25,849 nucleotides of DNA from Pseudomonadota bacterium (GTDB lineage Bacteria > UBA10199 > 2-02-FULL-44-16 > JBDRGF01). Positions within the stretch are counted from its first letter, which is position 1. The number at the start of each line of letters is the position of its first letter. Under the pieces are notes generated by a model. That model searched no databases and was not told the origin of the DNA. It worked only from the letters and a program-made list of their open reading frames with translations. Made by a program: the position numbers and the translations under genes. Positions 3,071 through 25,454 of the stretch are shown here, in pieces. Where the stretch lies: contig JBDRGF010000036.1 in assembly GCA_043818055.1 (NCBI GenBank), forward strand, positions 1-25,849, read 5' to 3'.

Positions 3071-4147
3071 CTAAAACACAACATATTCTTTATCAGAGAT
3101 GATCACTTTTCTTTTTCCATCTGGAAATTCGATGGATGCCTCGGTTATCTGGATGGGGCTGTTCTTTGCATAGACGATGTCCTGATGAATTACATTTTCA
3201 GGCGATTTGAATTTATCTGGGGAGGTTGTCCCGCCCAAATGATCGCTCCGCCCGAAGGCCCAGTGAAAACCTGCCTTTTCATCCTCCAACACATTTCCCC
3301 ACACTACCGCCTTTGGATTGCAACCGAAGGCAAACTCAGCGAGGTTTGCCCTTGCAGGATCTTCTGAAAAGAAAGCATTCCATTTCTCTGCTTTTGTTTT
3401 TTCACCATCGACACCGATAATTTTGTTATTTTTGATGTTGAAAATAACTATGTCACCTTTGTCATAGACTGGAATCTTACCCTCGGTTTTGCTCGGTATA
3501 TTTTCTTTTTCTCCATCGTATGGTCCAAACGCCGTTTCACCACAGGGAAGGTTTATCAGTTTTAAGCCCTTTTTATTTCGGGGAAGCTGTCCATCATCTG
3601 TCAGGACTTCCCTATATCGTAAGTCAAAATAACATTCATCACCTGTAGAGAATTTCACTATTCCACCTACGGCCCCCGTCATCAGATCTTTTAATATATT
3701 GCATCTCTTCATTAGATCATAATAATCGACGTCGAGGGCTGTCTCTTCCATCCTCTTTGCGATCATAGGCATCGAAGCCGATCTGAAATCGGAATTTTCT
3801 TTTGAGTACATTATTAAAAACGCCGAAGCCGAATATTCTGTCAGTGCGAGCAAAATTGTAGCTTGAGAAAGAGCATCTCTCAGTTTTATGGGTTCGCCCT
3901 TTTCAAGCGGCAACTGAGCATTATGCGTACCTGTCGCGGGATATTTTATAAGCGGCAGGACTTTGAATCCAACTTCATGGGAGAGCTCCTTAAGCATGAT
4001 ATGCCAATTTTCTGCCATCACTCTTCGCTCTCTCCAGGCTGGATTATCTTTTATTTTTTCAGTAGGCTCATCAGAAATTATCAGAACGTTTTCATCAGAC
4101 TCAGGATGAAAAATATCTATAAATGACTTTTTTAAATCGAAACTCAC
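3071..4147 (-). CDS. Metallo-aminopeptidase, peptidase M29 (AmpS/AmpT)-like
   Basis: Metal-ligand motifs in M29 order: NLPCGE, LAEFAFG, EDEKAGFHWAFG, IHQD. GTG start overlaps the upstream TGA, with a GGAGG RBS. Confidence 0.75.
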   Translation of the reverse strand: MSFDLKKSFIDIFHPESDENVLIISDEPTEKIKDNPAWRERRVMAENWHIMLKELSHEVGFKVLPLIKYPATGTHNAQLPLEKGEPIKLRDALSQATILLALTEYSASAFLIMYSKENSDFRSASMPMIAKRMEETALDVDYYDLMKRCNILKDLMTGAVGGIVKFSTGDECYFDLRYREVLTDDGQLPRNKKGLKLINLPCGETAFGPYDGEKENIPSKTEGKIPVYDKGDIVIFNIKNNKIIGVDGEKTKAEKWNAFFSEDPARANLAEFAFGCNPKAVVWGNVLEDEKAGFHWAFGRSDHLGGTTSPDKFKSPENVIHQDIVYAKNSPIQITEASIEFPDGKRKVIISDKEYVVF

Positions 4148-4992
4148 TTGCCACCTCCGTCTTGATTAATTCTTTCTAAAAATATTTTTACAAGTCTATT
4201 CAGTTCTGAGGCGTAAACTTTTCGCTCCATTGCATCTTCTGACATGAATCTTGCGAATCGTTGTGGACCTATTTGGAGAAGGTCGGAGAAAAATTTTTCC
4301 ATGTAAGTAATGGCTTCCTTTGCTAAACCATGTTGCAATATTGGTTGAAAATCTTGAGCTAGCGCTTCAATTCCGCCTGGATAAAACTTTAGACACGAGT
4401 AAATATCATAAGCATCCTTTTCAGACTTTCTGGATTCAAAGGTGATGAGTTTTAAGACCAGATAAGCCGCACCGTTTGCAACCTTTACCATTTCGCTATG
4501 TAGAATGCCATCGGGTAACATTGCTGTGACATTGATTTCAACAGCATTATCAAAGACTATGTCGACACCTCTCGCCTTGTGAACATGAACTCCTTCTTGT
4601 ATTTTTTCTCTAAATCCTTTTTTAGCTTTTGTTCCATATTCAGGTCCAATGAGATCAACGACAACAACGTGAACCTTTTCTTCAAGTTCGATAATACGTT
4701 CAAAGGAAAATTTCAGATCATTTCCGTCCCGATCTTTTCTGTAGTGATATCCTCTTTTAAAAAGCAAATCAGCTATGGTTGCGTATTCCTGCTCAGAAAC
4801 ATTTTGTGAGTTTACTGCAAAATCGACATCATAGGTTCCTATATGTTTCGATTCTTTAGTAAATAACACTTTTGGAACTAAACCTCCGACTAAAACAAAA
4901 TCTTTTCTATATTTTCCTATGCATGAAATAACATCAACCATTACCGATAAACATAGCTGTGATAGGTTTTCTGTGTAGTCAGTCTTTTTCAT
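4144..4992 (-). CDS. Nucleotidyltransferase, AbiEii-like type IV toxin
   Basis: Pol-beta-fold motif VLVGG...HIGTYDVDF and C-terminal LKL...R...KDAYDI; lies 8 nt downstream of an AbiEi-like gene. Confidence 0.78.
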   Translation of the reverse strand: MKKTDYTENLSQLCLSVMVDVISCIGKYRKDFVLVGGLVPKVLFTKESKHIGTYDVDFAVNSQNVSEQEYATIADLLFKRGYHYRKDRDGNDLKFSFERIIELEEKVHVVVVDLIGPEYGTKAKKGFREKIQEGVHVHKARGVDIVFDNAVEINVTAMLPDGILHSEMVKVANGAAYLVLKLITFESRKSEKDAYDIYSCLKFYPGGIEALAQDFQPILQHGLAKEAITYMEKFFSDLLQIGPQRFARFMSEDAMERKVYASELNRLVKIFLERINQDGGGK

Positions 4993-5000
4993 TTATTTTC

Positions 5001-6035
5001 TCAAAATTTAAGTTTTTCTTCTCTTAAAAATGTTGCCTGTTCTTTTCCGCGTTTTGGATCGGAGTATAGATCAAGGTAAAGCTGTATCAAGCCAACGGTA
5101 TAAAATCCGTCAATTTTCATGGAAAAGTCAAAAATGCCTTCATCATAAGGTTCTAAAATTTTTACATTCTCACCGCTGTTGCCGCGAACTAAAAGAGCAT
5201 CTAACTTCTCCCATGTAGAGGTTATGTCAACACTCCCTTTATGATATGCTTCAATAACCTGATAATCTGCAAAAGGTGCTATTAGAGATGAGGCAGCTGT
5301 TCGAGTAAGAATATAATTTTCATTATGTTTAAAAAATTGCATTATTTCATTCAGAGGTTTGTTTATGAGAATTTTTGTTTCAATGTTGTTTTTCCTAAAG
5401 CTATAATTATCTGCCCACAGCTCCAATAATAGGCCAGGGTCAACAAGTGAAATTCCATCTTCTCGTGTAATAAAAGATTGTTGTTCAAGTGCATCGATCA
5501 CCTTTGTTACCAATGAAGGACTGACATGACACATCTTAGCTAATTCCGATGGTTTAAGTTTTTGGGGGTATGTTTCAAGTAATGTTCGGATAATGCGAGA
5601 TGATTTGCCTGAAAAAATATTTTTCAATGACTCCGTAAAAGGATAAAGATTTTGTTTGCCTGAAATCTGGATATGAACATCATGTTTCTGATTTGTGTTA
5701 TGTTGAAAAACATTAATTGAACAATTTCCAGAAAGGTCTAAAAAATTTACTCCTTCCTTTTCAAGAGTAGCCTGGGTGCCAGGAGGGAAATATGTTCCTA
5801 CAAAAAGATAATTCCCTTCTTTTGTTTTTACTCGTTTTAATAACGAATTCATCTCTGATGGATATGGACGTTTACACACCAAAAGGATAAAAAGATAAGT
5901 ATTGTTTTCAATGTTAATTTTTGCCTTAAAATCGGTTGAAGTTTCCACGATCTGTTTGATTGAAAGCCTTGGAAACAGGATGGCCGCTTCCTGTTCAAAG
6001 AGTTTGATGATTTTCTTTTGAGAAAATGATTTCAT
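5001..6035 (-). CDS. AbiEi-like antitoxin / transcriptional regulator (AbiEi_2-type)
   Basis: GVNFLDLSGN motif, central HTH (PSELAKMCHVSPSLVTKVIDALEQQSFI), LLELWADNY, C-terminal QLYLDLYSDPKRGKEQA. Confidence 0.75.
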   Translation of the reverse strand: MKSFSQKKIIKLFEQEAAILFPRLSIKQIVETSTDFKAKINIENNTYLFILLVCKRPYPSEMNSLLKRVKTKEGNYLFVGTYFPPGTQATLEKEGVNFLDLSGNCSINVFQHNTNQKHDVHIQISGKQNLYPFTESLKNIFSGKSSRIIRTLLETYPQKLKPSELAKMCHVSPSLVTKVIDALEQQSFITREDGISLVDPGLLLELWADNYSFRKNNIETKILINKPLNEIMQFFKHNENYILTRTAASSLIAPFADYQVIEAYHKGSVDITSTWEKLDALLVRGNSGENVKILEPYDEGIFDFSMKIDGFYTVGLIQLYLDLYSDPKRGKEQATFLREEKLKF

Positions 6036-10111: not shown

Positions 10112-10147
10112 TTGACTTGTATAACTATATTGTTATACTTTGTATAA
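10112..10147 (+). promoter_or_regulatory. Promoter with overlapping palindromic operator for the ATPase/nuclease gene
   Basis: TTGACT (10112-10117)-N16-TATACT (10134-10139) with TGn extension; GTATAAC-N6-GTTATAC palindrome at 10119-10138; extra TTGTATAA at 10140-10147. Confidence 0.6.
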
Positions 10148-10181
10148 GTTAAACACTACAGTGTTGAAAGAGGGTGCCCAC

Positions 10182-11588
10182 ATGGAAAAGTTTGTAGGAA
10201 GGGAGTATGAAATTCAACTTCTTGAAGAGGCATATAAAAAACATGTCTCACAATTGTTTATCATCCAGGGCCGTCGTCGCATTGGAAAAAGCACCCTTAT
10301 AGAAAAATTCATACATGATAAGAAACACCTGTACTTCATAGGTGGCGAAGAGAAAGAGACATTTCAAATCGAGCGATTTCTGCGTGAAGCAGCCGATGCC
10401 CTTAAAGAACCTCTGATAAATCAAATACGGCCAAATAACTGGGAAGAGGTTTTTAATGCAATAAACCCATTTCTATTAAAGAACAAAACTGTGTTCGTCC
10501 TCGATGAGTTTCAATGGATGGGAAAGGCCTCCCTTGACTTACTTTCCACGCTGCAACGCCAGTGGGATAAGACCTGGAAGAGGTCTGGTAAAATTTTTAT
10601 TATTTTATGTGGTTCATCTGTCAGTTTCATGGAACATGAAGTTCTCGGGGAAAAAAGTCCTTTATATGGCAGAAGAACGGGACAAATAAAACTTATGCCG
10701 TTTACTCCGCATGAATTAGCTTTGTACTTTCCCAATAGATCATACAGGGATCAGGCTCTGATCTTTTTTTGCGTTGGTGGAGTTCCGAAATATCTGGAGT
10801 TATTCGATAATAAACAATCGGTGTGGGATGTGCTGAACAAAGAAGCTTTTAGTAAAGATGGTTATCTGATAAATGAAATTGTTTTTCTGCTAAAGGAGGA
10901 GTTGAGAGATCCCGGATTATATTATGCCATTTTAAGCTCACTGATCAGGGGAGGAAAGAGCCTTACCGAGATAAGTAAATATGTTGGAAAAGAGAGGACT
11001 TCATTGAATTTTTTGCTCAGTAAACTACAGGAATTGAATTTTATTAAAAAGCAGTTGTCACTGCCGGGAAGTAGAACATCTATAAGATACAGAATCTCAG
11101 ACCCTTTTTTAAAATTTTGGTTTTCATTCATATTGCCTAATAAAAGTAAGATAGAAATTAATTATGGAGACTATCTGGTTGATGAGATTCTGGGGGATAA
11201 CTGGGCTGTCTATTGTGGTTTTGCCTTTCAGGATTTTTGTTTAGATCACGCTTCCTCCATAGCCAAATGCCTTGGAATAAAGTCTTCATATCGCGATGGT
11301 ACCTTTTTACAAAGGGCATCAAAAAAGCAAAGAGGCGTACAGATAGATTTGGTTATAGAGCGAAATGATGGAATAACGCATATAGGTGAATGTAAGTGGT
11401 TTAATAAAAAGATAGGAAAGGGGATTATTTCTGAGATGGAGGAGAAAATTAAGCTCTACCCCAATCCAAAAAAAAATACTATAAGCCCGGTTATAGTTAC
11501 TACTATGGGTGCTACAAAAGAATATAAACTTGCAACAGACTGGCCGGTCATTGTTTTGGAAGATATCTTCGAAGCTGGCAAAAAATAG
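10182..11588 (+). CDS. Archaeal-type AAA ATPase (ATPase_2) + wHTH + DUF234-like PD-(D/E)XK domain protein
   Basis: FVGREYE, Walker A GRRRIGKS, Walker B VLDEFQW, LCGSS, SPLYGRRT, GGVPKYL, YRISDPFLKFWF, QIDLV...IGECKW. ATG 10182 preferred because TTG 10140 lies immediately after the -10 box. Confidence 0.88.
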   Translation: MEKFVGREYEIQLLEEAYKKHVSQLFIIQGRRRIGKSTLIEKFIHDKKHLYFIGGEEKETFQIERFLREAADALKEPLINQIRPNNWEEVFNAINPFLLKNKTVFVLDEFQWMGKASLDLLSTLQRQWDKTWKRSGKIFIILCGSSVSFMEHEVLGEKSPLYGRRTGQIKLMPFTPHELALYFPNRSYRDQALIFFCVGGVPKYLELFDNKQSVWDVLNKEAFSKDGYLINEIVFLLKEELRDPGLYYAILSSLIRGGKSLTEISKYVGKERTSLNFLLSKLQELNFIKKQLSLPGSRTSIRYRISDPFLKFWFSFILPNKSKIEINYGDYLVDEILGDNWAVYCGFAFQDFCLDHASSIAKCLGIKSSYRDGTFLQRASKKQRGVQIDLVIERNDGITHIGECKWFNKKIGKGIISEMEEKIKLYPNPKKNTISPVIVTTMGATKEYKLATDWPVIVLEDIFEAGKK

Positions 11589-14866: not shown

Positions 14867-15676
14867 ATGTCAGCACAGCTGGTTACGCCCGGGAGTTTGG
14901 CCAGGACCATCGCATTCGTTCATCATAAGGGCGGAACTGGCAAGACCACCGCATGTATAAATGTCGCCGGATGGCTCAATAAAATGAAAAAGAGGGTTCT
15001 CGTTATCGATCTCGATCCCCAGGGGAATGCGACCGCTGGCTTGGGAATTGACAGGTCATCGATTGAAGATACGATTTACGATGTCATGTTTGGTTTTAAA
15101 AATCTTGGAATGATTATTCTGGAAACGGAATCCGGCGTATATCTCGCCCCATCCTCTCTCGATCTTCTTGCCGCGGAAACACACATGGCCGGCCAGTCTG
15201 ATAACACGGCGATACTTAAGGGGAGCCTTAAGGATGTCGATAAATTTTTTGACTATATACTGATCGATGTCCCGCCCGGCTCTACCCTTTTGATGATCAA
15301 CGGAATTGTTGCGTCCGAAAACATTATAATTCCTGTCGATTCAGGTGTCTTTGCCTTTGAAACACTGGAGACGCTTAAAACTCTGATAATCGACCTTGCC
15401 GGGGAACTGGGAGTTGAAGTCAATGTAATGATGCTCCTCCTGAAACAGCACCCGGGTCCTGGATTCTGGAGCAATCCCACAAAAGAGATCAAAGGCATGT
15501 TAAAGCGCTTTCTGTCAGAAAACAATATTTCAGAAGTTGATATATATAAAATTCCTTTTTCCACAAAGATATACAAGGCGCAGATGAAGGGGAGTCCGAT
15601 ATCACACTTTGCGCCAAGAAGTGATGTGGGAAAGGCATATAAGAGGATAACTAAGGGCATTCTTAATAGCGTATAG
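14867..15676 (+). CDS. ParA/Soj-family ATPase associated with the chemosensory operon (PpfA/ParC-like role inferred)
   Basis: Deviant Walker A KGGTGKTT, VLVIDLDPQGNATAGLG, DYILIDVPP; no parB in the window. ATG 14867 follows GGGGGA; alternative ATG 14852. Confidence 0.92.
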   Translation: MSAQLVTPGSLARTIAFVHHKGGTGKTTACINVAGWLNKMKKRVLVIDLDPQGNATAGLGIDRSSIEDTIYDVMFGFKNLGMIILETESGVYLAPSSLDLLAAETHMAGQSDNTAILKGSLKDVDKFFDYILIDVPPGSTLLMINGIVASENIIIPVDSGVFAFETLETLKTLIIDLAGELGVEVNVMMLLLKQHPGPGFWSNPTKEIKGMLKRFLSENNISEVDIYKIPFSTKIYKAQMKGSPISHFAPRSDVGKAYKRITKGILNSV

Positions 15677-15734
15677 TGTTTTGCGTATAGGATTATTATA
15701 GCCCTATACGCTATACGCTCCGCGCTATTCGCTA
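15667..15734. repeat. Heptamer inverted-repeat element (TAGCGTA / CTATACG) at the parA-mcp junction
   Basis: Left arm TAGCGTA TAGTGTT TTGCGTA TAG contains the parA stop; right arm CTATACG CTATACG CTCCGCG CTATTCG CTA. Confidence 0.85.
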
Positions 15735-15750
15735 AAAAATGGAGGTTTTT

Positions 15751-18700
15751 ATGGCTAAGGAACCAACACGTGGTCAGGGGAGGAAGGCGCTTTTCGGGAC
15801 CAAAAATGAGCAGGATACAAAGGAGTACATGGCGCGGAAAGAACTTTTGACAGAGGATGAACCAGTTGAAAAGGAGGGGAGGGCTGCTAAAATTCTGATA
15901 CAGAAAAGTGACGAACTTGTAGAGAAGAGACTTCAAGGCCTTCTTGATGCCCTCGAGGCTGTCAGGAACGGAGACCTCTCAAAGCGTTTGAAGAGGGAGT
16001 ACAACGATATCTTTGGTGAACTGGCCGATTCATATAATTCGATGGTCGATAACTTGAGCGTATTTGGCGGCGAGGTCACGCGTGTTGCCAAAGAGGTGGG
16101 TACGGAGGGAAAGCTCGGTGGACAGGCCAAGGTTCCTAATGTCATAGGTATATGGAGAGAGTTGACTGATAATGTCAATACGATGGCCAATAATCTTACG
16201 AATCAGGTGCGAAATATCGCAACAGTATCAGCCGGTATTGCAAACGGCGATCTGACACAAAAGATCACCGCCGAGGCACAGGGTGAGATTCTTCAGGTGA
16301 AAGAGACAGTCAATAAGATGGTCGATAATCTGAACCTCTTCAATAATGAGGTGACGCGTGTTGCGCGCGAGGTGGGAACCGAGGGGAAACTCGGCGGTCA
16401 GGCAAACGTTCCTGGCGTTGCGGGTGTCTGGAAAGACCTCACCGATAATGTCAATACTATGGCCAACAATCTGACAGGCCAGGTACGAAATATAGCAACG
16501 GTGGCGAGCGGTATTGCGAACGGAGATCTGACACAAAAGATCACCGTTGAAGCGCAAGGTGAAATATTGCAGGTTAAAGAGACGGTCAACAAGATGGTTG
16601 ATAATTTAAATCTCTTCGGTGCTGAAGTTACGCGTGTTGCGCGCGAGGTGGGCACCGAAGGTAAGCTCGGTGGACAGGCTTCTGTTCCGGGAGTTGCCGG
16701 CACATGGAAGGCTCTGACCGAGAACGTCAATATAATGGCTGTCAATCTCACGAATCAGGTGCGTAATATCGCCAAGGTCGGTACTGCAATTGCCCAGGGC
16801 GACCTGACACAAAAGATCACGGTTGAGGCAAAAGGCGAGATAGCGGAACTGAAGGAGACGCTCAACAAAATGGTTGATAGTCTGAATATTTTTGCCAGTG
16901 AAGTGACCCGTGTTGCTGGAGAGGTCGGCACTGAGGGTAAACTCGGTGGTCAGGCAAAGGTGCCGGGAGTCGCGGGCACATGGAAGGAGCTGACGAACAA
17001 TGTGAATATGCTTGCCGGAAACCTGACTGTCCAGGTGAGAAATATCGCACAGGTTACAACGGCGGTGGCGAACGGAGATCTCTCGCAGAAGATCACAGTC
17101 GAGGCAAAAGGCGAGATATTTGAACTTAAGAACACGATAAACAAGATGGTGGACAGCCTTAACGTTTTTGCCAGTGAAGTGACTCGTGTGGCTGGAGAGG
17201 TGGGCACCGAAGGAAAGCTTGGTGGTCAGGCAAAAGTGCCTGGCGTGGCAGGTGCGTGGAAGGAATTGACAGATAATGTAAACGCGATGGCGAGCAACCT
17301 GACAACACAAGTGCGAAACATTGCGACCGTGGCCACAGCGGTGGCGAATGGTGATTTGAGGCAGAAGATTACAGTGGAGGCAAAGGAGGAGATCCTCGAA
17401 CTCAAAAATACGCTCAACCAGATGGTGGACAATCTCAACCTGTTTGGTGCGGAGGTGACGCGCGTTGCCCGTGAGGTGGGGACCGAGGGTAAACTCGGTG
17501 GCCAGGCTGTAGTGCCAAATGTCGCTGGTACGTGGAAGGAACTGACGGACAACGTGAACGCCATGGCGAGCAACCTGACAACACAGGTGCGAAATATTGC
17601 GACGGTAGCCACTGCTGTGGCAAACGGAGATCTCTCACAGAAAATAACGGTCGAGGCAAATGGCGAGATCCTCGAACTCAAGAATACGCTCAACAAGATG
17701 GTGGACAACCTCAACCTGTTTGGCGCGGAGGTGACGCGAGTTGCCCGTGAGGTGGGGACAGAGGGCAAACTCGGTGGCCAGGCTATAGTGCCAAATGTCG
17801 CCGGTACATGGAAGGAACTTACTAATAATGTGAACGCCATGGCCGCAAACCTGACCTCGCAGGTCAGGAACATCGCACAGGTCACGACGGCTATCGCGAA
17901 CGGAGACCTTACGCAGAAGATCACCGTGGAAGCGGCAGGTGAAATATTGGAGCTCAAAAATACTATCAATCAAATGGTTGACAGTTTAAACAGATTGGCC
18001 GCTGAGGTTGCGCGAGTTGCTCAGGTCGCAGGAGCGGAGGGGAAACTCAGTGAAAGGGCAGAGGTTGAGGGTGTGAAGGGAAGCTGGAAAGAGGTCGTCG
18101 ATACGTTGAACACACTTCTCGATTCCATCGTTTCACCAGTGCAAGAGGTTATTCGGCTGGCCGTTGCCCTCTCTAAGGGGGATCTTACACAGAGAGTAAC
18201 CATCAGTACGGCAGGTGATATAAAAACCCTTGCGGATGCCCTCAATAAATCCTTCGATGATCTCGGCACGCTGATCAGGCTGGCAGTGGATGGTTCAGGA
18301 AAGGTTTTCAACGCATCAGAACAATTGGCCAATTCATCGAGGCAGGTTAGTAGGGCGCTTAATGAGGCCGCGACGACGACGAATCAGATCGCCGGCGGTG
18401 CCAAGGAGCAGTCCAAAAAACTGGAGGGTTCGACAAAGATTGTTGCAGATCTCTCCAATTCTATTTCTCAAGGGTCGGCTAACGCGAAGATTGCGGCAGA
18501 GGTTACATCGGAGGCAGCCAAATTATCACAAAAGGGGACGGAATCTGGTAAACAAGCGGCAAACAGACTGAAATCGATAGATGATATAGTGAAGGGGAAT
18601 ACCGCTACGGTCAAAGAACTAGACAAGAAGGCAAAGGAGATCGCGATTATCGTGGGTACGACAAAAGATATAGCCGACCAGACGAACCTGCTTGCACTCA

Positions 18701-19248
18701 ACGCGGCAATCGAGGCTGCACACGCGGGTGAGGCTGGCCGAGGATTTGCCGTCGTTGCCGATGAGATAAGAAAGCTGGCCGAGGGGACTAAAAAGGCCGC
18801 TGTTCAGATCGAGGGAATGGTCAGCACAATAGCAGAGTCCGTGACCGAAGTGGTCGGAGGCATGACAACAGGTACGACTCAGGTCACAGAGAGTATCGAC
18901 ATTGTCAACGCGGCACTCTCCGTATTAGATCAGATCGGTGCCGGCGCCTTGGAGATCACGTCGAAGGCACAAGAGATCTCAATGGCTACGGAACAACAGT
19001 CAGGTTCTGCCCAACAGGTGGCAAAAAATATCGAAGAGATCGCCGCCACTTCAGAGCAAGCCGCTGTCAGTTCATCCCAGATGGCAACATCTATCCAACA
19101 GCAGAGCGCCACGATGCAGCAGATGGCAAGTTCTTCCCAGGCCTTGACTGATGTATCCACAGAGCTCAGAAATTCGCTGACCAGGTTCAAGATCATGGGA
19201 ACGGAAAATGTCAAAGGGGTGGAGGCAGAAGCGGCAAGAACAGAATGA
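15751..19248 (+). CDS. Cytoplasmic methyl-accepting chemotaxis protein with poly-HAMP array
   Basis: MCP tip [38 protein letters not shown]; methylation-type helices ([19 protein letters not shown]); eight 92-aa HAMP repeats; no hydrophobic TM segment visible. ATG 15751 follows GGAGG. Confidence 0.95.
16072..18279 (+). repeat. Eight 276-bp coding tandem repeats (92-aa poly-HAMP units)
   Basis: The [19 protein letters not shown] motif starts at 16072, 16348, 16624, 16900, 17176, 17452, 17728 and 18004 (last copy diverged), exactly 276 bp apart. Confidence 0.95.
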
Positions 19249-19337: not shown

Positions 19338-19988
19338 ATGGAACAACAAGCTACCACATTGGCCGAAAGAATTAAGAAGGCGCGTGCGGGAACCCCGTAT
19401 AGTGCGGAAGCACAATTGGAACAACTGATTATCTTCCGCCTCGGAGAGGATGAATTTGGGGTTAGGATTGATGAGGTGAGGGAGATCATCAAAGCGGGAT
19501 CCATAACTCCCATACCCGATTCGCCTGAATTTATAAGAGGTATAATTAACGTAAGGGGAGAGGTGATCATCACGGTAGATCTCAAGTCGCGTTTCTTTCT
19601 CCACTTAAAACGAAAGATCGAAAATCTGCACATAATTGTTACCAGAGAAGAAAGAAATCCGTTTGGACTTCTCGTTGATGAGGTCACCGAGGTGATGAGA
19701 CTGCCTAAATCTGACATAAAAGACACACCCGGTCTTGTGACCAAGATTCACGAGGATTATGTTGTCGGTGTGGTGACGCACGAAAATCGTTTGATTATCC
19801 TTCTCGATCTCAAAAAGGTTCTATCAGAGAATGAGCTTGTGAAATTGACGGATGTACAGAGAAAACACGGTGCAACATTAGATTACGCAGAAGAGGCGCA
19901 GGTTGTTGACAAGGCTGTATCAGTTAAGGAGACAAAAACAGCTATTGGTGCCAGAGATAACGGGAAAAAGAAATCAAAGAAAAAATAG
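19338..19988 (+). CDS. cheW: Chemotaxis coupling protein CheW with N- and C-terminal extensions
   Basis: LIIFRLGEDEFGVRIDEVREII, ITPIPDSPEFIRGIINVRGEVI, FGLLVDEVTEV, LIILLDLKKVL. Confidence 0.95.
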   Translation: MEQQATTLAERIKKARAGTPYSAEAQLEQLIIFRLGEDEFGVRIDEVREIIKAGSITPIPDSPEFIRGIINVRGEVIITVDLKSRFFLHLKRKIENLHIIVTREERNPFGLLVDEVTEVMRLPKSDIKDTPGLVTKIHEDYVVGVVTHENRLIILLDLKKVLSENELVKLTDVQRKHGATLDYAEEAQVVDKAVSVKETKTAIGARDNGKKKSKKK

Positions 19989-20047
19989 CGTTGTGAGTCA
20001 TGAATTAAGACTGCATGTCGCGTTACGCTAACAACCCGGGGGTTAAT

Positions 20048-20410
20048 ATGTCGAAAATAATGATCGTGGACGATTCATCATTTATCAGGCTGAGGTTGAA
20101 AAACATCTTAAAGGAGAGAAAACACGATATTGTGGAGGCGAAATCGGGTCCCGAGGCCGTAATGCTATTCAAAAAGGAGAAGCCCGATCTGGTTTTTCTG
20201 GATATCATCATGCCTGAAGGTGAGGAGGAGGGTGTCAACATCTTGAAAGAGATTATGAAAATAGATTCCAAAACCAAAGTCTTAATGCTCACCGCCGTGG
20301 GATATGACAAGATTGTGGCAGAGTGTAAATCGATTGGCGCAAAGGAATATATTATCAAACCATTTACAGAAGAAGAGGTGCTTGGAATGGTGGATAAATA
20401 CCTGGCGTAG
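20048..20410 (+). CDS. cheY: Chemotaxis response regulator CheY
   Basis: Stand-alone REC domain: IMIVDDS, PDLVFLDIIMP, MLTAVG, YIIKPF; position in the che operon. ATG 20048 gives 120 aa. Confidence 0.9.
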   Translation: MSKIMIVDDSSFIRLRLKNILKERKHDIVEAKSGPEAVMLFKKEKPDLVFLDIIMPEGEEEGVNILKEIMKIDSKTKVLMLTAVGYDKIVAECKSIGAKEYIIKPFTEEEVLGMVDKYLA

Positions 20411-20451: not shown

Positions 20452-21504
20452 TTGATAACAGCCCGAACAATCAAAGTTCTCATAGTTGATGATTCACTGT
20501 TTATGCGCCAGTTGATATCGCGCATGCTTGAGTGCGCCCCTGATATAACTGTTATCGATACCGCCAAAGATGGTGATTCAGCCCTCCAAAAAATTGCAGC
20601 ATTAAAGCCGGACGTCGTGACCATGGATCTCAAGATGAAGGGGTTGGATGGATTGACGACATTAAAAAGGATCATGAAAGAATGTCCGACGCCTGTCGTA
20701 ATACTCTCCGCGTATAGTAAAGAAGATGCTGATATTACACTGCAATGCCTCGGCGCAGGCGCAGTGAGTTTTCTCCTAAAACCCTCGGGGGAGTTATCCC
20801 TCGATATAGAGGTAGTTAAAGACCATCTTTTAGAACAGATCAGGGCGGCTTCAAAGGTCAATGTTGGGAAGATCAAATCGCTAGCGGCAAAGGGTGAGGG
20901 TGCCCCTGAGTGTGGTCTTACCGGTATAGACAAGATCATAGTTATCGGGGCATCAACAGGGGGGCCTCAGTCGCTGGAGGTGATACTCTCCTTTCTTCCC
21001 AGAGATTTTCCCGCGTCGATCATAGTTGTTCAACACATGCCGACAATAGCCTTCACAGAAAGCGTAGTGAGAAGGCTAAAAAAGGTCTGTAAGTTGGTCG
21101 TAAAAGTTGCTGAGGATGATGAGTATCTCCATCCGGGCACGGTTTACTTTGTTCCAGCCGGTTATGATCTGTTGCTGATCGCGAGTCGCTTGTCGTTGGT
21201 TGCCGACAAAGAGAGTAGCAGCGCTCAGCGACATTTTATCACCCCATCGATCAATGAGACCATGAAAAAAGTTTCGGCTATATATAAAGACAAGATGCTT
21301 GGAATAATACTGACCGGCATGGGTTCCGACGGAGTAACTGGCATGGGAACGATCAAGGAACATGGCGGTAAAACTATCGCGCAGGACGAATCTTCTCTAA
21401 TATTTGGTATGCCCAAAGAGGTAATCGACGCGGGCTTCGCCGATAAAGTGTTGCCACTGGAGAAGATCGCCGATGATATGCTAAAGTTTGTTGGTAGTGG
21501 ATAG
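20452..21504 (+). CDS. cheB: Chemotaxis methylesterase CheB (REC + esterase)
   Basis: VLIVDDS, PDVVTMDLKM; catalytic triad motifs IGASTGGP, VQHMP, ILTGMGSDG; IAQDES..FGMPK. Confidence 0.95.
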   Translation: MITARTIKVLIVDDSLFMRQLISRMLECAPDITVIDTAKDGDSALQKIAALKPDVVTMDLKMKGLDGLTTLKRIMKECPTPVVILSAYSKEDADITLQCLGAGAVSFLLKPSGELSLDIEVVKDHLLEQIRAASKVNVGKIKSLAAKGEGAPECGLTGIDKIIVIGASTGGPQSLEVILSFLPRDFPASIIVVQHMPTIAFTESVVRRLKKVCKLVVKVAEDDEYLHPGTVYFVPAGYDLLLIASRLSLVADKESSSAQRHFITPSINETMKKVSAIYKDKMLGIILTGMGSDGVTGMGTIKEHGGKTIAQDESSLIFGMPKEVIDAGFADKVLPLEKIADDMLKFVGSG

Positions 21505-21662: not shown

Positions 21663-21704
21663 CTCTACGCTAAACGCTATCCGCTAACTATTATACGCTG
21701 ACTA
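21663..21704. repeat. Heptamer array (right-arm orientation) before cheA
   Basis: CTCTACG CTAAACG CTATCCG CTAACTA TTATACG CTGACTA. Confidence 0.85.
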
Positions 21705-23455
21705 TGACAACAGAAAAACTGACAGAGATTCAAGAGTTCAATGACGCCTTTCTCAGGGAGGCAAATGAGCATCTTGAATCGATGAACGATGCCCTCCTTA
21801 AAATGGAAAAAAAACCGGGTGATATGAATCTTGTCTATAGGATCTTTCACGCCGCTCATTCTTTCAAGTCGATGGCCGCGCTGATGGAGTACCGAAAGAC
21901 CGAAACATTATGTCATGCGATGGAGGATGTCCTGTCGGCTGTTAAGAAGAAAGAGATTAAGTTAGAACAGTGTATCGATATACTCTTTGAATCGGTCGAC
22001 AAGTTGGAATCAACTGTTAAGAATATAGCCAAAGGAAAAAAAGAACTCGATGCCTCTGCACTTGTTAATAAGCTGCGCAGACTGGCGAAGCAGGATGAGC
22101 GGATAGCGGATAGCGTAGAGCGTATAGAAGACCAGGACGTCGATGATATGCCAGACTCCGAACTCACAACTCAGAACTCAGAACTTGTCCACACACCCAT
22201 ATCTACCATCGAAGTCAAAGTCGAGCGTCTTGATCGTCTCATGAATCTGGCCGAGGAGCTTTTAGTCAATAAGATGTGGATGGACAGAATCAAAGGGGAT
22301 CTCGAATCGCCGGAACTTACCTCCGCCGTGAACAACCTGGACAGGTTGGTAACCGAGATCCAGTTCGACGTTATGCAGTCACGGCTTGTACCTATCGGTT
22401 TCGTATTCAGGCGATTTCCAAGAATGGTGAGGGACATGGCCAAGCAGCAGGGAAAGAGGATCGAATTGCAGATGGAGGGAAGCGATATAGAATTGGACAG
22501 GGCCATTATAGATGAAATAGGCGAGGCCATGGGCCATCTCTTAAGAAACTGCATCGACCATGGTATTGAGAAGCCGGATGAAAGAAAGAGAGCAGGCAAA
22601 CCGCCTGAAGCTATCATCAAGTTGACGGCGCTCAGGGACAGGGGGCTTGCTGTCATTGAGATCCAGGACGACGGTCGCGGGCTTGATGTTGAAGAGATAA
22701 AAAGGACCGCAATAAAAACGGGGTTGTTGACTCAGGGCGCAAGCAGGGAAGATGTAATAGATACCGTCTTCCATGGTCTGAGTACGACAAAGCAGGTTAC
22801 TAAGACCTCCGGCAGAGGTTTTGGCCTGAATATCGTTAAAAAAAAGGTGGAGTCTCTGGGCGGTGTAATCAAGATAGAGACTGCTGAGAAAGAGGGAACC
22901 GTTTTCAGGATAGAGGTTCCCCTGACACTTGCCGTTATCAAATCGCTCTTTGTGGGTGTGGGTGGAAAATCCTATGCGATCCCTGTTGCGAATGTGGTGC
23001 GACTCGTCACAGTTAAAAAAGATGAAATAAAGGGGATGCTGGAAAACGAAGGCATAATATTAGATGGAGAGGATATCCCAATAACCCGCCTTAATGTGTT
23101 GTTTAAGACTAAAGACAATGATGGGCGTACAGCGGATAGCGCAGAACAACATAAGCGGGTAGCGGATAGCGTAGAGCGTATAGAAAAAGATGATGATCTA
23201 TCCGCTATACGCCATACGCTAAACGCTAGTGAGAATCTGCCCATGGTTATTGTAAAAAAGGGTGGAGAGATGATGGGACTTTTAGTGGACGAATTGCTGA
23301 GCACTCAGGAGATAGTCATCAAGCCGCTTCATAGATTGATGACAGAGGAGGGGTATTCCAATAAATACTTTGCCGGTTCAGCAATCATCGGAACAGGAGA
23401 GGCCATATTGGTGCTGGATGTTGGAAATTTAGTTTTATCTTGTCGTGGCGCATGA
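21704..23455 (+). CDS. cheA: Chemotaxis histidine kinase CheA lacking P2, with repeat-derived insertions
   Basis: P1 IFHAAHSFKS; P3 VKVERLDRLMNLAEEL; P4 HLLRNCIDHGIE, DDGRGLD, SGRGFGLNIV; P5 PLTLAVI...QEIVIKPL...LVLDV; only 583 aa. Confidence 0.96.
   Translation: MTTEKLTEIQEFNDAFLREANEHLESMNDALLKMEKKPGDMNLVYRIFHAAHSFKSMAALMEYRKTETLCHAMEDVLSAVKKKEIKLEQCIDILFESVDKLESTVKNIAKGKKELDASALVNKLRRLAKQDERIADSVERIEDQDVDDMPDSELTTQNSELVHTPISTIEVKVERLDRLMNLAEELLVNKMWMDRIKGDLESPELTSAVNNLDRLVTEIQFDVMQSRLVPIGFVFRRFPRMVRDMAKQQGKRIELQMEGSDIELDRAIIDEIGEAMGHLLRNCIDHGIEKPDERKRAGKPPEAIIKLTALRDRGLAVIEIQDDGRGLDVEEIKRTAIKTGLLTQGASREDVIDTVFHGLSTTKQVTKTSGRGFGLNIVKKKVESLGGVIKIETAEKEGTVFRIEVPLTLAVIKSLFVGVGGKSYAIPVANVVRLVTVKKDEIKGMLENEGIILDGEDIPITRLNVLFKTKDNDGRTADSAEQHKRVADSVERIEKDDDLSAIRHTLNASENLPMVIVKKGGEMMGLLVDELLSTQEIVIKPLHRLMTEEGYSNKYFAGSAIIGTGEAILVLDVGNLVLSCRGA
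22097..22186 (+). repeat. Two in-frame heptamer arrays in the CheA P1-P3 linker
   Basis: GAGCGGA TAGCGGA TAGCGTA GAGCGTA TAG (22097-22127) and AGACTCC GAACTCA CAACTCA GAACTCA GAACTT (22153-22186). Confidence 0.85.
23123..23228. repeat. In-frame heptamer hairpin element inside CheA P5
   Basis: AAGCGGG TAGCGGA TAGCGTA GAGCGTA TAG (23153-23183), 14-nt loop, CTATCCG CTATACG CCATACG CTAAACG CTA (23198-23228); three more heptamers at 23123-23143. Confidence 0.9.
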
Positions 23456-23475: not shown

Positions 23476-24072
23476 ATGAAGAATCCAATCAAAACAAGGA
23501 TGACTGAGGTCAATGAGAATGCGGCTCGAAACACGTCGGAGGCAATGACCAAATTGATTGGCAGACAGGTTGACGTTACGATCAAGCGCTCGGAAGTGAT
23601 CAATGTGAAAGATGTCAGTCCGGACATAAAGTCCGAGGATATCGTAGCCGGAATATATCTGCCTATTACGGGTGAGGCCAAAGGAGCTGCATTAGTGATC
23701 TTTCCCGATACCACCGCATTCAAACTTTGTGATCTCCTTATGGAAAAAGAACAAGGCACGACGCGACAGATCACCAAGATGGATGAAGCCGCGTTGAAAG
23801 AGGTTGGTAATATTATCTGCGGAAGCTACTTTACAATTCTCTCGAACAAACTCGATATCAAGATAATTGAAAACATCCCCGACTTCAGTTTTACGATGTT
23901 CGGTTCAATAATGGAGGAGATTATCGCTAACTATGTGCTGCGGACTGAAAAAGCTCTGGTCATTGAGGTGATAATTGATATCAAACCACTTACGCTTAAA
24001 GGATATTTTATTCTGCTGTTTGAGACAGAAAATATCGAAGCGATGTTATCTTCATTCGAAGAATTGAAATAA
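23476..24072 (+). CDS. cheC: CheC-family CheY-P phosphatase
   Basis: SEAMTKLIGRQVDV, AALKEVGNIICGSYFTILSN, IENIPDF; located between cheA and cheD. Confidence 0.88.
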   Translation: MKNPIKTRMTEVNENAARNTSEAMTKLIGRQVDVTIKRSEVINVKDVSPDIKSEDIVAGIYLPITGEAKGAALVIFPDTTAFKLCDLLMEKEQGTTRQITKMDEAALKEVGNIICGSYFTILSNKLDIKIIENIPDFSFTMFGSIMEEIIANYVLRTEKALVIEVIIDIKPLTLKGYFILLFETENIEAMLSSFEELK

Positions 24073-24139: not shown

Positions 24140-24628
24140 ATGGAGAAAAATGTCAAAATGGGTGAGATAGCGTTTTCTAAGGAGACTGAGACTCTGGTTT
24201 CTGCCGGTGTCGGCTCCTGTCTGGTCATTACGCTCTATGACCCGAAATTGAAGTTCGGCGCGATGGCACACGCAGTACTCGCCAGATCAGTGTATAGCAT
24301 AGAACTTATGGCTGCCAGGAAAAAGGATCTAAAAACTGCCCGCTATCTGCTGGACACGAAGTACGTGCAGGATGCCATAGATGCCATGCTTGTCAGAATG
24401 CAGGATGCGGGCTCGAGAAATTCGAATATAGAGGCAAAACTCGTCGGCGCCGCAAACATGTTTTCTTCGCTAGAGACCGGTGTGGGCAGGGAATCTATCG
24501 ATGAGGCAAAAAAGAGGCTGAAGGAAAAGGGCATAAAAATCGTAGGCGAATCGGTCGGAGGAAACATGGGAAGGTCGGTAGACTTCAACCCGAAGAGCGG
24601 AATTGTTACGGTGTCAATAAAGTTTTGA
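24140..24628 (+). CDS. cheD: Chemoreceptor glutamine deamidase CheD
   Basis: VKMGE, GVGSCLVITLYD (Cys), GAMAHAVL (His), EAKLVGAANMF, ESVGGNMGRSVDF. Confidence 0.93.
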   Translation: MEKNVKMGEIAFSKETETLVSAGVGSCLVITLYDPKLKFGAMAHAVLARSVYSIELMAARKKDLKTARYLLDTKYVQDAIDAMLVRMQDAGSRNSNIEAKLVGAANMFSSLETGVGRESIDEAKKRLKEKGIKIVGESVGGNMGRSVDFNPKSGIVTVSIKF

Positions 24629-24689: not shown

Positions 24690-25454
24690 ATGAAGCGAGT
24701 CCTACTCATAGAGCCCGACAAAGAGCTCGCCGGGTCGTTTGTCGGCTGGCTTGAAGGGAATAACATAGGCGTTAAGCTTGTGGATGATCCGGATGGTACG
24801 CTGAATCTTCTCTCTAATGATCAATTCGATATGTTGATTGTCGATATCGATTATCCCGGAACGACCGAATCTCTTCTTGAACTCTGCAAAACCCTTAAAC
24901 AAGATACCCGTTACTCAGATATCCCGATAACAGTTCTTACGTTCAAGAAGGAGGTGGAGAAGATTGCAGCCGCAATTGAATCGGGCGTAGATGGCTTGAT
25001 ACTCAAACCCTTTGAAACCGGATATTTTATAGATCGTATAGAGGCGTTACTCGCACAGAGCAAACTTAAAAAAAAGGGTAAAAAGGTCCTGGATCTCAAC
25101 TTTATCAATTTCATAATCAATCTTGCGATCGACCTTGACCGTGATGGATTTTTTGCCCTCATGACAACGGTGTTTAACGAGTTAATTATAAATAAAACCA
25201 AAGGGATTCTCGGTGAACCGGTCATAATAGTTCTCATGAAAAGGATCAATGAGATGATGGAAGACGACTGTGCATTTATGAAGCAGATGCAATTTGCAGA
25301 TGGTCGTTTTCGGCTTGATGAAATTGCTATGGCTGCAAAGAATGTGAGCCCTGACAAACTTGCTATTGGCTGTAGAAGATACATAGATTATTTTTTATAT
25401 CTGATTCAGACATTGACATCGGATGTCCTGATGGACAAGGGGAGGATCCGCTAG
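24690..25454 (+). CDS. Response regulator: REC domain plus unrecognised helical C-terminal domain
   Basis: VLLIEPD, DMLIVDIDYP, IPITVLT, GVDGLILKPF; the ~130-aa C-terminus has no motif I recognise. Confidence 0.85.
   Translation: MKRVLLIEPDKELAGSFVGWLEGNNIGVKLVDDPDGTLNLLSNDQFDMLIVDIDYPGTTESLLELCKTLKQDTRYSDIPITVLTFKKEVEKIAAAIESGVDGLILKPFETGYFIDRIEALLAQSKLKKKGKKVLDLNFINFIINLAIDLDRDGFFALMTTVFNELIINKTKGILGEPVIIVLMKRINEMMEDDCAFMKQMQFADGRFRLDEIAMAAKNVSPDKLAIGCRRYIDYFLYLIQTLTSDVLMDKGRIR

What the first reader, a model, noticed from the sequence alone, without database searches (positions are those of the whole stretch)
14867..15798. Chemoreceptor starts with a ParB-like ParA-activation peptide directly after an orphan parA: candidate self-partitioning cytoplasmic array
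Seen: the MCP begins [16 protein letters not shown], and the gene just upstream is a ParA ATPase with no parB in the window. Established: chromosomal ParB/Spo0J proteins engage ParA via a basic N-terminal LGRGLxALx peptide, and Rhodobacter PpfA (a ParA) partitions cytoplasmic clusters using the N-terminus of the soluble receptor TlpT. Inference: [10 protein letters not shown] is a ParB-type GxGxxAL(F/L)G motif on the receptor, so the MCP itself is the cargo adaptor. This parA + ParB-peptide/poly-HAMP/MCP arrangement is my best candidate for an undescribed system here.
Basis: partly seen in the sequence, partly recalled or inferred. Interest (0 to 1): 0.82.

Follow-up and report, generated by a model that had tools for sequence, protein, structure and literature searches.

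The report
Tagged chemoreceptor with DNA-blind ParA
A membrane-free chemoreceptor begins with a short conserved tag that, in methanogens and scattered bacteria, travels with its own family of ParA-type ATPases; the tag likely docks the receptor cluster on this ATPase, which has lost the usual DNA-gripping arginines and may position the cluster on the membrane instead.

Summary
A separate parA (the genome's parAB is on another contig) precedes a soluble 17-HAMP chemoreceptor whose start codon has a strong ribosome site. The peptide is real, but its conserved core is GRKALF, not GxGxxALFG. It shares only G-x-x-A-L-F with ParB; ParB's activating arginine and two key leucines are missing in register.

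The ParA defines its own clade (HHKGGTGKT), common in Methanoregula and Methanoculleus and patchy in bacteria. Of 49 informative loci, 46 put the tag on one receptor or PAS-CheW protein per cluster. The 3 untagged loci have also lost the ParA pocket residues that bind ParB's arginine in a known system.

The family lacks both nucleoid-binding arginines (0/63 and 1/63, against 76/76 and 75/76 in controls). It carries an insert there, predicted as a MinD-like amphipathic helix in archaeal members.

The system likely works like Rhodobacter PpfA–TlpT, a known kind, but probably not on DNA. Binding is untested; the complex predictor was unavailable. The scan noted this ParA–receptor pair before in an Omnitrophota genome. 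The tag, the pocket covariation and the insert were not in the lines I saw.

The parts
14867..15676 (+). Orphan ParA/Soj-fold ATPase of a distinct chemosensory-linked clade (Walker A HHKGGTGKTT at 14921-14950)
   Evidence: own clade with SH-aLRT 100 in a quick tree, apart from Vibrio/Pseudomonas ParC and chromosomal ParA
15077..15163 (+). Y71/D72 to D99: equivalents of M. xanthus ParA Y81/E82/D110, the site that binds the partner peptide's basic residue
   Evidence: Mapping through PDB 8ray; kept in tagged loci, lost in untagged loci
15446..15475 (+). Loop that replaces the Soj 'DxR' DNA-binding loop (QHPGPGFWSN, 7 residues longer than controls); long amphipathic insert in archaeal relatives
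15741..15745 (+). Ribosome-binding site GGAGG, 5 nt before the receptor start
   Evidence: Sequence
15769..15798 (+). N-terminal tag [10 protein letters not shown] (residues 7-16); conserved core GRKALF at 15778-15795
15751..19248 (+). Soluble chemoreceptor: tag, acidic linker, about 17 HAMP units in 92-residue repeats with the kinase-type junction Trp, MCP signalling domain; no sensor domain
19338..19988 (+). cheW
   Evidence: Pfam CheW
20015..20410 (+). cheY-like single receiver domain
   Evidence: Pfam Response_reg
20452..21504 (+). cheB with receiver; catalytic motifs present
21704..23455 (+). cheA; best NCBIfam match is the haloarchaeal CheA model, below its cut-off
23476..24072 (+). cheC
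24140..24628 (+). cheD
24690..25454 (+). Receiver protein with an unassigned C-terminal half; possible output of the cluster (inference)

Best explanation
The receptor's N-terminal GRKALF tag likely docks on the dimer of the co-encoded ParA, which would then hold and position the membrane-free chemoreceptor array, probably on the membrane or a landmark protein rather than on the nucleoid. Shown: gene order; a soluble receptor; one tagged protein per cluster across archaeal and bacterial loci; covariation of tag and ParA pocket; loss of the DNA-binding arginines; an insert in their place. Inferred: ATP-bound ParA dimers bind the tag through the A-L-F face in the partner cleft, with a basic residue at the Y71/D99 site. 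The family's conserved D176, in place of a mostly basic or leucine residue, could pair with the tag's arginine and keep it apart from the cell's own ParB. The tagged receptor is built into the array through its signalling tip and CheW, so ParA moves or anchors the whole array. Least sure: the surface ParA uses. In methanogens the insert is predicted as a free amphipathic helix like a MinD membrane anchor. In this bacterium it is only a short loop with an aromatic pair.
For: Tag in 46 of 49 informative ParA loci, out of 64 loci with a whole ParA. It sits on unrelated bodies: poly-HAMP MCP, PAS MCP, PAS-CheW. In 13 of 13 two-receptor loci only the second receptor is tagged. ParA Y71 is kept in 46 of 47 and D/E99 in 47 of 47 ParAs of tagged loci, against 0 of 3 for each in untagged loci. 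In 17 ParA-receptor pairs inferred from equal contig length, Y71 is kept in 13 of 14 tagged and 0 of 3 untagged pairs (one untagged pair is L144 again). No tag was found in 27 receptor loci from 15 same-class genomes that lack this ParA (best score 1.0 bit). M. xanthus R235/R238 positions are Arg in 0/63 and 1/63 family members, against 76/76 and 75/76 controls. The segment there is 34-72 residues against 27-28. An amphipathic pattern occurs in 20 of 45 long inserts, against a mean of 0.43 in shuffles and 0 of 75 controls. AlphaFold places an extra helix 204-212 on low-confidence linkers in the L122 ParA. Precedent: PpfA acts through the TlpT N-terminus (passage); partners bind through N-terminal peptides (passages).
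Against: No binding, ATPase or localisation data. About half of the closest receptor orthologs have a weak tag or none (44 of 96 score at least 12 bits, 51 of 96 at least 8). ParA is retained in at least three loci with an untagged receptor (L115, L144, L165). The covariation rests on about two independent losses (one clade plus L165). One tagged pair has lost Y71 (P0062/P0145), and so has L151. Loci were collected by ParA, so the frequency of tag without ParA was not measured directly. Many loci are close kin. In the window's own ParA, K234 replaces R238 (Lys in 116 of 148 bacterial-clade proteins) and the C-terminal part has net charge +9, which would allow DNA binding by other residues. The amphipathic pattern was drawn up after seeing the inserts and matched 0 of 18 short inserts, including this one.
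Confidence: 0.55

Rival explanations
1. Same tag-ParA docking, but the ATPase coats the nucleoid with non-canonical basic residues and segregates the array by a diffusion ratchet, as PpfA does.
For: The fold is closest to Soj. K234 and net charge +9 in the C-terminal part of the window's ParA. The inserts also carry Lys/Arg. PpfA precedent.
Against: Both canonical arginines and the DxR loop are gone; the R238 position is Glu in 20 of 63. The tag lacks the arginine that M. xanthus ParB needs for stimulation.
Confidence: 0.25
2. ParA is the receptor's input rather than its carrier: binding of the ATP dimer to the tag pushes a signal down the sensor-less poly-HAMP rod.
For: The receptor has no sensor domain. 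Coles et al. suggest that HAMP arrays may couple N-terminal inputs to output (passage). The genome has no flagellin or FliG.
Against: The same tag sits on PAS receptors with their own sensors and on PAS-CheW proteins with no signalling domain. A charged linker of about 40 residues separates tag and first HAMP.
Confidence: 0.1
3. The tag works without ParA, as a basic DNA-binding tail like that of Myxococcus FrzCD or as an array-assembly peptide, and the gene linkage is historical.
For: Residues 1-20 have net charge +3. FrzCD binds the nucleoid by a basic tail (passages). ParA persists beside some untagged receptors.
Against: FrzCD tails conserve charge, not sequence, whereas here A-L-F is nearly invariant. 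Tag loss coincides with pocket loss on ParA.
Confidence: 0.1

Closest known systems
PpfA-TlpT of Rhodobacter (Cereibacter) sphaeroides cheOp3
   Same: Orphan ParA encoded beside a soluble chemoreceptor and thought to act through the receptor's N-terminus (passage). Such parA genes occur in che operons of 77 of 206 species (passage).
   Different: PpfA is chromosome-associated, and its Walker A is listed as KGGVGKT. This family has KGGTGKT and lacks the DNA-binding arginines. The cluster has CheC and CheD.
ParC-ParP of Vibrio and Pseudomonas
   Same: A ParA-type ATPase in a che cluster. The tagged PAS-CheW proteins of some archaeal loci resemble ParP in joining an N-terminal partner segment to a CheW-type domain (ParP per the abstract).
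   Different: The ParC-type proteins L243 and L244 fall outside this clade. ParC serves membrane-bound polar arrays and keeps basic DNA-binding residues. Their downstream partners do not begin with the tag.
Chromosomal ParA-ParB (M. xanthus, H. pylori Soj-Spo0J; PDB 8ray, 8jmj)
   Same: Same fold. Y81/E82/D110 equivalents kept. The peptide ends in G-x-x-A-L-hydrophobic.
   Different: No ParB CTPase or DNA cargo. The tag lacks L11, R13 and L15. Pocket positions E117, L150 and L187 differ. The DNA-binding arginines are lost.
MinD/FlhG and Haloferax MinD4
   Same: MinD4 positions archaeal chemosensory arrays and needs an amphipathic membrane-targeting helix (passages). The inserts here resemble such helices.
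   Different: Here the helix is internal, not C-terminal, and the ATPase is Soj-like by sequence and fold. Membrane binding is untested.
Poly-HAMP kinases and chemoreceptors (M. xanthus AskA; Coles et al. 2026)
   Same: 92-residue double-HAMP repeats without a sensor domain.
   Different: The array has the junction Trp of kinase arrays (8 of 8) yet ends in an MCP domain, as earlier scan notes e1-2050275 and e1-2050276 said.

Membership tests
ParA/MinD ATPases | Deviant Walker A KGGxxK[ST] and Soj/MinD fold | tested here: met
   KGGTGKT; AAA_31; TM up to 0.89 to 8ray
Chromosomal ParABS | parB (ParB_N domain) encoded next to parA | tested here: not met
   ParB_N only on C125 and C101; no family locus read showed parB next to parA
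Chromosomal ParABS | Partner peptide L-G-[RK]-G-L-x-A-L-[IL] with four hydrophobic residues and a central Arg/Lys | tested here: not met
   The tag keeps G, A, L, F only; the central position is P/Q/A/T/S in 42 of 42 aligned tags (definition)
Nucleoid-binding ParA (Soj, PpfA, McdA type) | C-terminal DNA-binding arginines (M. xanthus R238 region; DxR loop) | tested here: not met
   0/63 and 1/63 against 76/76 and 75/76; DxR 1/63 against 71/75. The window protein has Lys at the R238 position
PpfA-TlpT type positioning | Orphan parA in a che cluster beside a soluble receptor | tested here: met
PpfA-TlpT type positioning | The receptor N-terminus binds or stimulates the ATPase | tested here: inconclusive
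   Covariation only; no binding model or assay
PpfA-TlpT type positioning | Orthology to PpfA | not tested
ParC-ParP | Membership of the ParC clade | tested here: not met
   Quick tree: separate clades, each SH-aLRT 100
MinD/FlhG membrane-bound ATPases | C-terminal membrane-targeting helix | tested here: not met
   The proteins end after the last core helix
MinD/FlhG membrane-bound ATPases | ATP-dependent membrane binding (here through an internal helix) | not testable with these tools
   Pattern and predicted helix only

The most novel reading that the evidence does not exclude
A Soj-type ParA has swapped nucleoid binding for an internal membrane-targeting helix and, through a six-residue GRKALF tag on one receptor per cluster, tethers otherwise soluble chemoreceptor arrays to the membrane. 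It is the array-positioning system of Methanomicrobiales, and it has spread with a whole che cassette into non-flagellated bacteria.
Probability: 0.35. Interest if true: 0.8.

Novelty: new variant of a known kind. Interest (0 to 1): 0.6.

Why it matters
How archaea other than haloarchaea place their chemoreceptor arrays is open in the papers I could read. This gives a named candidate pair in cultured methanogens (Methanoculleus, Methanoregula), with a six-residue tag and specific ParA residues to mutate. A ParA-fold protein with an internal membrane helix in place of its DNA-binding surface would blur the usual split (ParA on nucleoid, MinD on membrane). The tag is also a candidate orthogonal 'luggage tag' for synthetic positioning (idea).

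Tried and rejected
The family Walker A pattern was not found in 151 sampled genomes of a methanobacterial phylum or in viral contigs. Neither ParA nor the receptor signalling domain matched PLSDB plasmids at the thresholds used. Metagenome loci could not be used as genome handles, so no genome-wide co-occurrence test in Methanomicrobia or Omnitrophota was possible. The profile search of 1.84 billion proteins with the peptide alignment gave only 22 hits; the 19 whose sequences I fetched all begin with the tag, but a short motif makes this search insensitive. Link to gas vesicles rejected: the only other same-class genome with the cassette (G014) has no gvpA match, and 11 other genomes with gvpA lack the ParA. 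Alternative start at MARKELL rejected. The promoter scan was at chance level (5 found, 3.0 +/- 2.0 expected). One groundwater RNA library holds near-identical contigs over parA, the receptor and most che genes; no silent control was laid, so this does not show transcription. The tree is the quick version; the careful search did not finish. Roberts 2012 and Briegel 2015 were not held. No supplements were read; Supplementary Fig. 14 of PMC12462528 and Additional file 5 of PMC2829493 may bear on whether this family was already listed.
Full report
**1. What is in the window.** The window is the whole contig C36 of a 2.93-Mb, 93.6% complete genome. After secA comes a same-strand run: parA (14867-15676), a 1165-aa chemoreceptor (15751-19248), cheW, cheY, cheB, cheA, cheC, cheD and a receiver protein. 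The receptor has no transmembrane or sensor domain. It is a tag, a linker of about 40 residues, about 17 HAMP units in 92-residue repeats and an MCP signalling domain. Each repeat has the junction Trp that Coles et al. assign to kinase-type arrays (passages). The start at 15751 has GGAGG 5 nt upstream. The MARKELL start has a poorly spaced site and is not conserved (4 of 39 tagged orthologs have a Met in the linker).

**2. Genome context.** The chromosomal parA-parB pair is on C125, and that ParB begins with an ordinary LGKGLESL motif. The only CheR belongs to a second che cluster on C122. No flagellin or FliG was found; PilT and a gas-vesicle cluster are present. The output is therefore unlikely to be a flagellar motor (inference; the genome is incomplete). 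Only 2 of 93 genomes of the class carry this ParA. The closest listed ParA relatives are 59-84% identical; those with a named source include Omnitrophota, Scalindua and a Lokiarchaeia record. This patchy spread suggests horizontal transfer of the cassette (inference).

**3. The ParA family.** With the window and G014, 64 loci held a whole ParA (duplicate L094 dropped). In a quick tree the 76 family rows form one clade (SH-aLRT 100, long stem), apart from chromosomal ParA, Vibrio/Pseudomonas ParC and a methanobacterial ParA (midpoint root, no direction of transfer tested). Named cluster members place many loci in Methanoregula and Methanoculleus. The Methanoregula- and Methanoculleus-type loci read have the order parA-MCP-cheW-(MCP)-cheR. 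Bacterial-type loci have parA-MCP-cheW-cheY-(cheB)-cheA-cheC-(cheD).

**4. The tag.** Of the 64 loci, 7 had no readable cargo and 8 ended before the second receptor. Of the other 49, 46 carry a GRKALF-like tag near the start of a receptor or PAS-CheW protein: 39 within one mismatch and 7 with two or three, judged by eye. Three do not (L115, L144, L165). The 46 include the window itself, and many loci are close kin. In all 13 loci with two readable receptors, the one next to parA is untagged and the second is tagged. The tag sits on poly-HAMP receptors, PAS receptors and PAS-CheW fusions, so it behaves as a portable module marking one protein per cluster.

**5. Controls and contrary results on the tag.** Among 107 receptors found by the signalling domain alone, 96 had a complete start (11 set aside, one of them tagged). 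Of these, 44 score at least 12 bits and 51 at least 8 on a tag profile. So about half of the closest orthologs have lost or eroded the tag, including named Legionella proteins. Receptors in 27 loci from 15 same-class genomes without this ParA score at most 1.0 bit; most look membrane-bound, so this is a weak control. Pairing ids by equal contig length found a family ParA for 11 of 35 tagged and 3 of 43 untagged receptors on contigs of 7 kb or more (Fisher p 0.007). That pairing was done by eye from truncated lists and is only suggestive.

**6. Is it a ParB peptide?** In M. xanthus ParB, L11, L15, L18 and I19 are needed for binding and R13 for stimulation (PMC12462528: abstract, passages, section 10 part 1 and section 14). 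Control ParB starts read LG[RK]GLxAL. The tag aligns G-R-K-A-L-F to G14-L15-x-A17-L18-I19. L15 becomes Arg, R13 becomes Pro, Gln, Ala, Thr or Ser (42 of 42), and L11 becomes mostly Glu or Arg. The window's first Gly is incidental. The tag resembles the second half of the ParB peptide but is a different motif. This genome's own ParB start scores 3.7 bits on the tag profile.

**7. The ParA surface changes with the tag.** Mapping through PDB 8ray, the site for the partner's basic residue (Y81, E82, D110) corresponds to Y71, D72, D99. Y71 is kept in 46 of 47 and D/E99 in 47 of 47 ParAs of tagged loci, but in none of the 3 untagged loci. The one tagged exception there, L151, has the variant GRDALF. 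Contig-length pairs agree: Y71 in 13 of 14 tagged and 0 of 3 untagged. This rests on about two independent losses. Other pocket positions differ from chromosomal ParA. E117 is Tyr or His in 47 of 63, and the L187 position is Asp in 59 of 63 against R, K, L or Q in most controls. The Asp could pair with the tag's new Arg (inference).

**8. The matrix-binding face is rebuilt.** The positions of M. xanthus R235 and R238 are Arg in 76 of 76 and 75 of 76 controls, and in 0 of 63 and 1 of 63 family members. The DxR loop is present in 71 of 75 controls and 1 of 63 family members. The segment is 27-28 residues in controls and 34-72 in the family. In 45 long inserts a post hoc amphipathic pattern occurs 20 times, against a mean of 0.43 in 200 shuffles and 0 of 75 controls. 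AlphaFold predicts the L122 insert (LALFLKRLF) as an extra helix on low-confidence linkers. Its likeness to MinD membrane anchors is partly recalled; that such anchors are short amphipathic helices is. The window's ParA belongs to the short-insert clade. It has a 7-residue extension with Phe-Trp (a hydrophobic pair in 133 of 148 relatives), but also K234 and net charge +9, so its matrix is less clear than in methanogens.

**9. Mechanism.** I put docking of the tag on this ParA at about 0.85. Given docking, I favour anchoring or positioning of the array on membrane or a landmark (0.55 overall) over a nucleoid ratchet (0.25) or ParA as signal input (0.1). A ParA-independent role gets 0.1. Binding was not modelled because the complex predictor was unavailable.

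**10. What is known.** PpfA positions the Rhodobacter cytoplasmic cluster through the TlpT N-terminus (PMC3964821, passages; the primary paper was not held). Orphan parA genes are common in che operons (PMC2829493, passages). N-terminal partner peptides are the general rule (PMC10241942 and PMC11407121, passages). Haloferax uses MinD4 (bioRxiv 2020.04.03.021790, passages). Also read as passages: PMC9178275, PMC13446029, PMC5716589, PMC6509185, PMC7289035. A full-text search for GRKALF or PGRKALF found 0 papers. Searches pairing methanogen names with ParA, MinD or chemoreceptor terms listed nothing whose title or abstract start concerns this family. The library lacks most subscription papers. 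That cytoplasmic arrays were imaged in methanogens (Briegel 2015) is recalled; the paper was not held.

**11. Verdict.** The feature is real and is a new variant of a known kind. The additions here are the defined tag, its one-per-cluster use in methanogens, the matching changes on ParA and the loss of the DNA-binding surface. Interest 0.6.

Noticed in passing
G000:C14:33371-53146 (own genome): Large gas-vesicle gene cluster (four GvpA-family matches, GvpL/F-like repeats, a GvpN-like ATPase, Hsp70, AAA ATPase, ArsA-like protein) headed by its own Soj-like ParA and a MinD/FlhG-like ATPase; a candidate positioning system for gas vesicles. GvpA-family genes occur in 12 of 93 genomes of the class.
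   Followed up: partly
P0249-P0259 (Rufibacter poly-HAMP receptors): Seven of these 11 unrelated soluble receptors begin MALGKNLKLNKDKLIG, closer to the ParB motif ALGKGL than the tag studied here; their neighbours were not examined.
   Followed up: no
L159:10824-13205, L155:4466-6775, L129:6861-9203, L148, L096: Proteins of 770-800 aa with the tag, several PAS domains and a C-terminal CheW domain but no MCP domain, directly after parA and (L159, L155, L129) before a cheR-like gene: ParP-like adaptors in methanogen-type loci.
   Followed up: partly
L093: Tandem duplication of the parA + 1700-aa tagged poly-HAMP receptor unit.
   Followed up: no
L141: parA and the tagged receptor are divergently transcribed rather than in one operon.
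   Followed up: no
window 15739-19248 and P0193, P0307-P0313: The same poly-HAMP receptor (72% identical signalling region) occurs in several named Legionella species without the tag; no Legionella-named ParA of this family was listed.
   Followed up: partly
window 24690-25454: Receiver protein with an unassigned helical C-terminal half closes the cluster; in other loci a PAS protein takes this place (L158). The cluster's output is unknown.
   Followed up: no
window 15829: A second ATG with AAGGAG 3 nt upstream could give a minor untagged receptor form; not conserved (4 of 39 orthologs have a Met there).
   Followed up: yes
window 4144-6035 and 10140-11588: A predicted nucleotidyltransferase plus regulator pair (AbiE-like by recall, not tested) and an archaeal-type AAA ATPase with DUF234 lie near the cluster, in low-GC stretches.
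   Followed up: no
G000:C122:4781-12093: Second che cluster (cheW, membrane receptor, cheA, cheB, cheW, long cheR) holding the genome's only CheR.
   Followed up: partly
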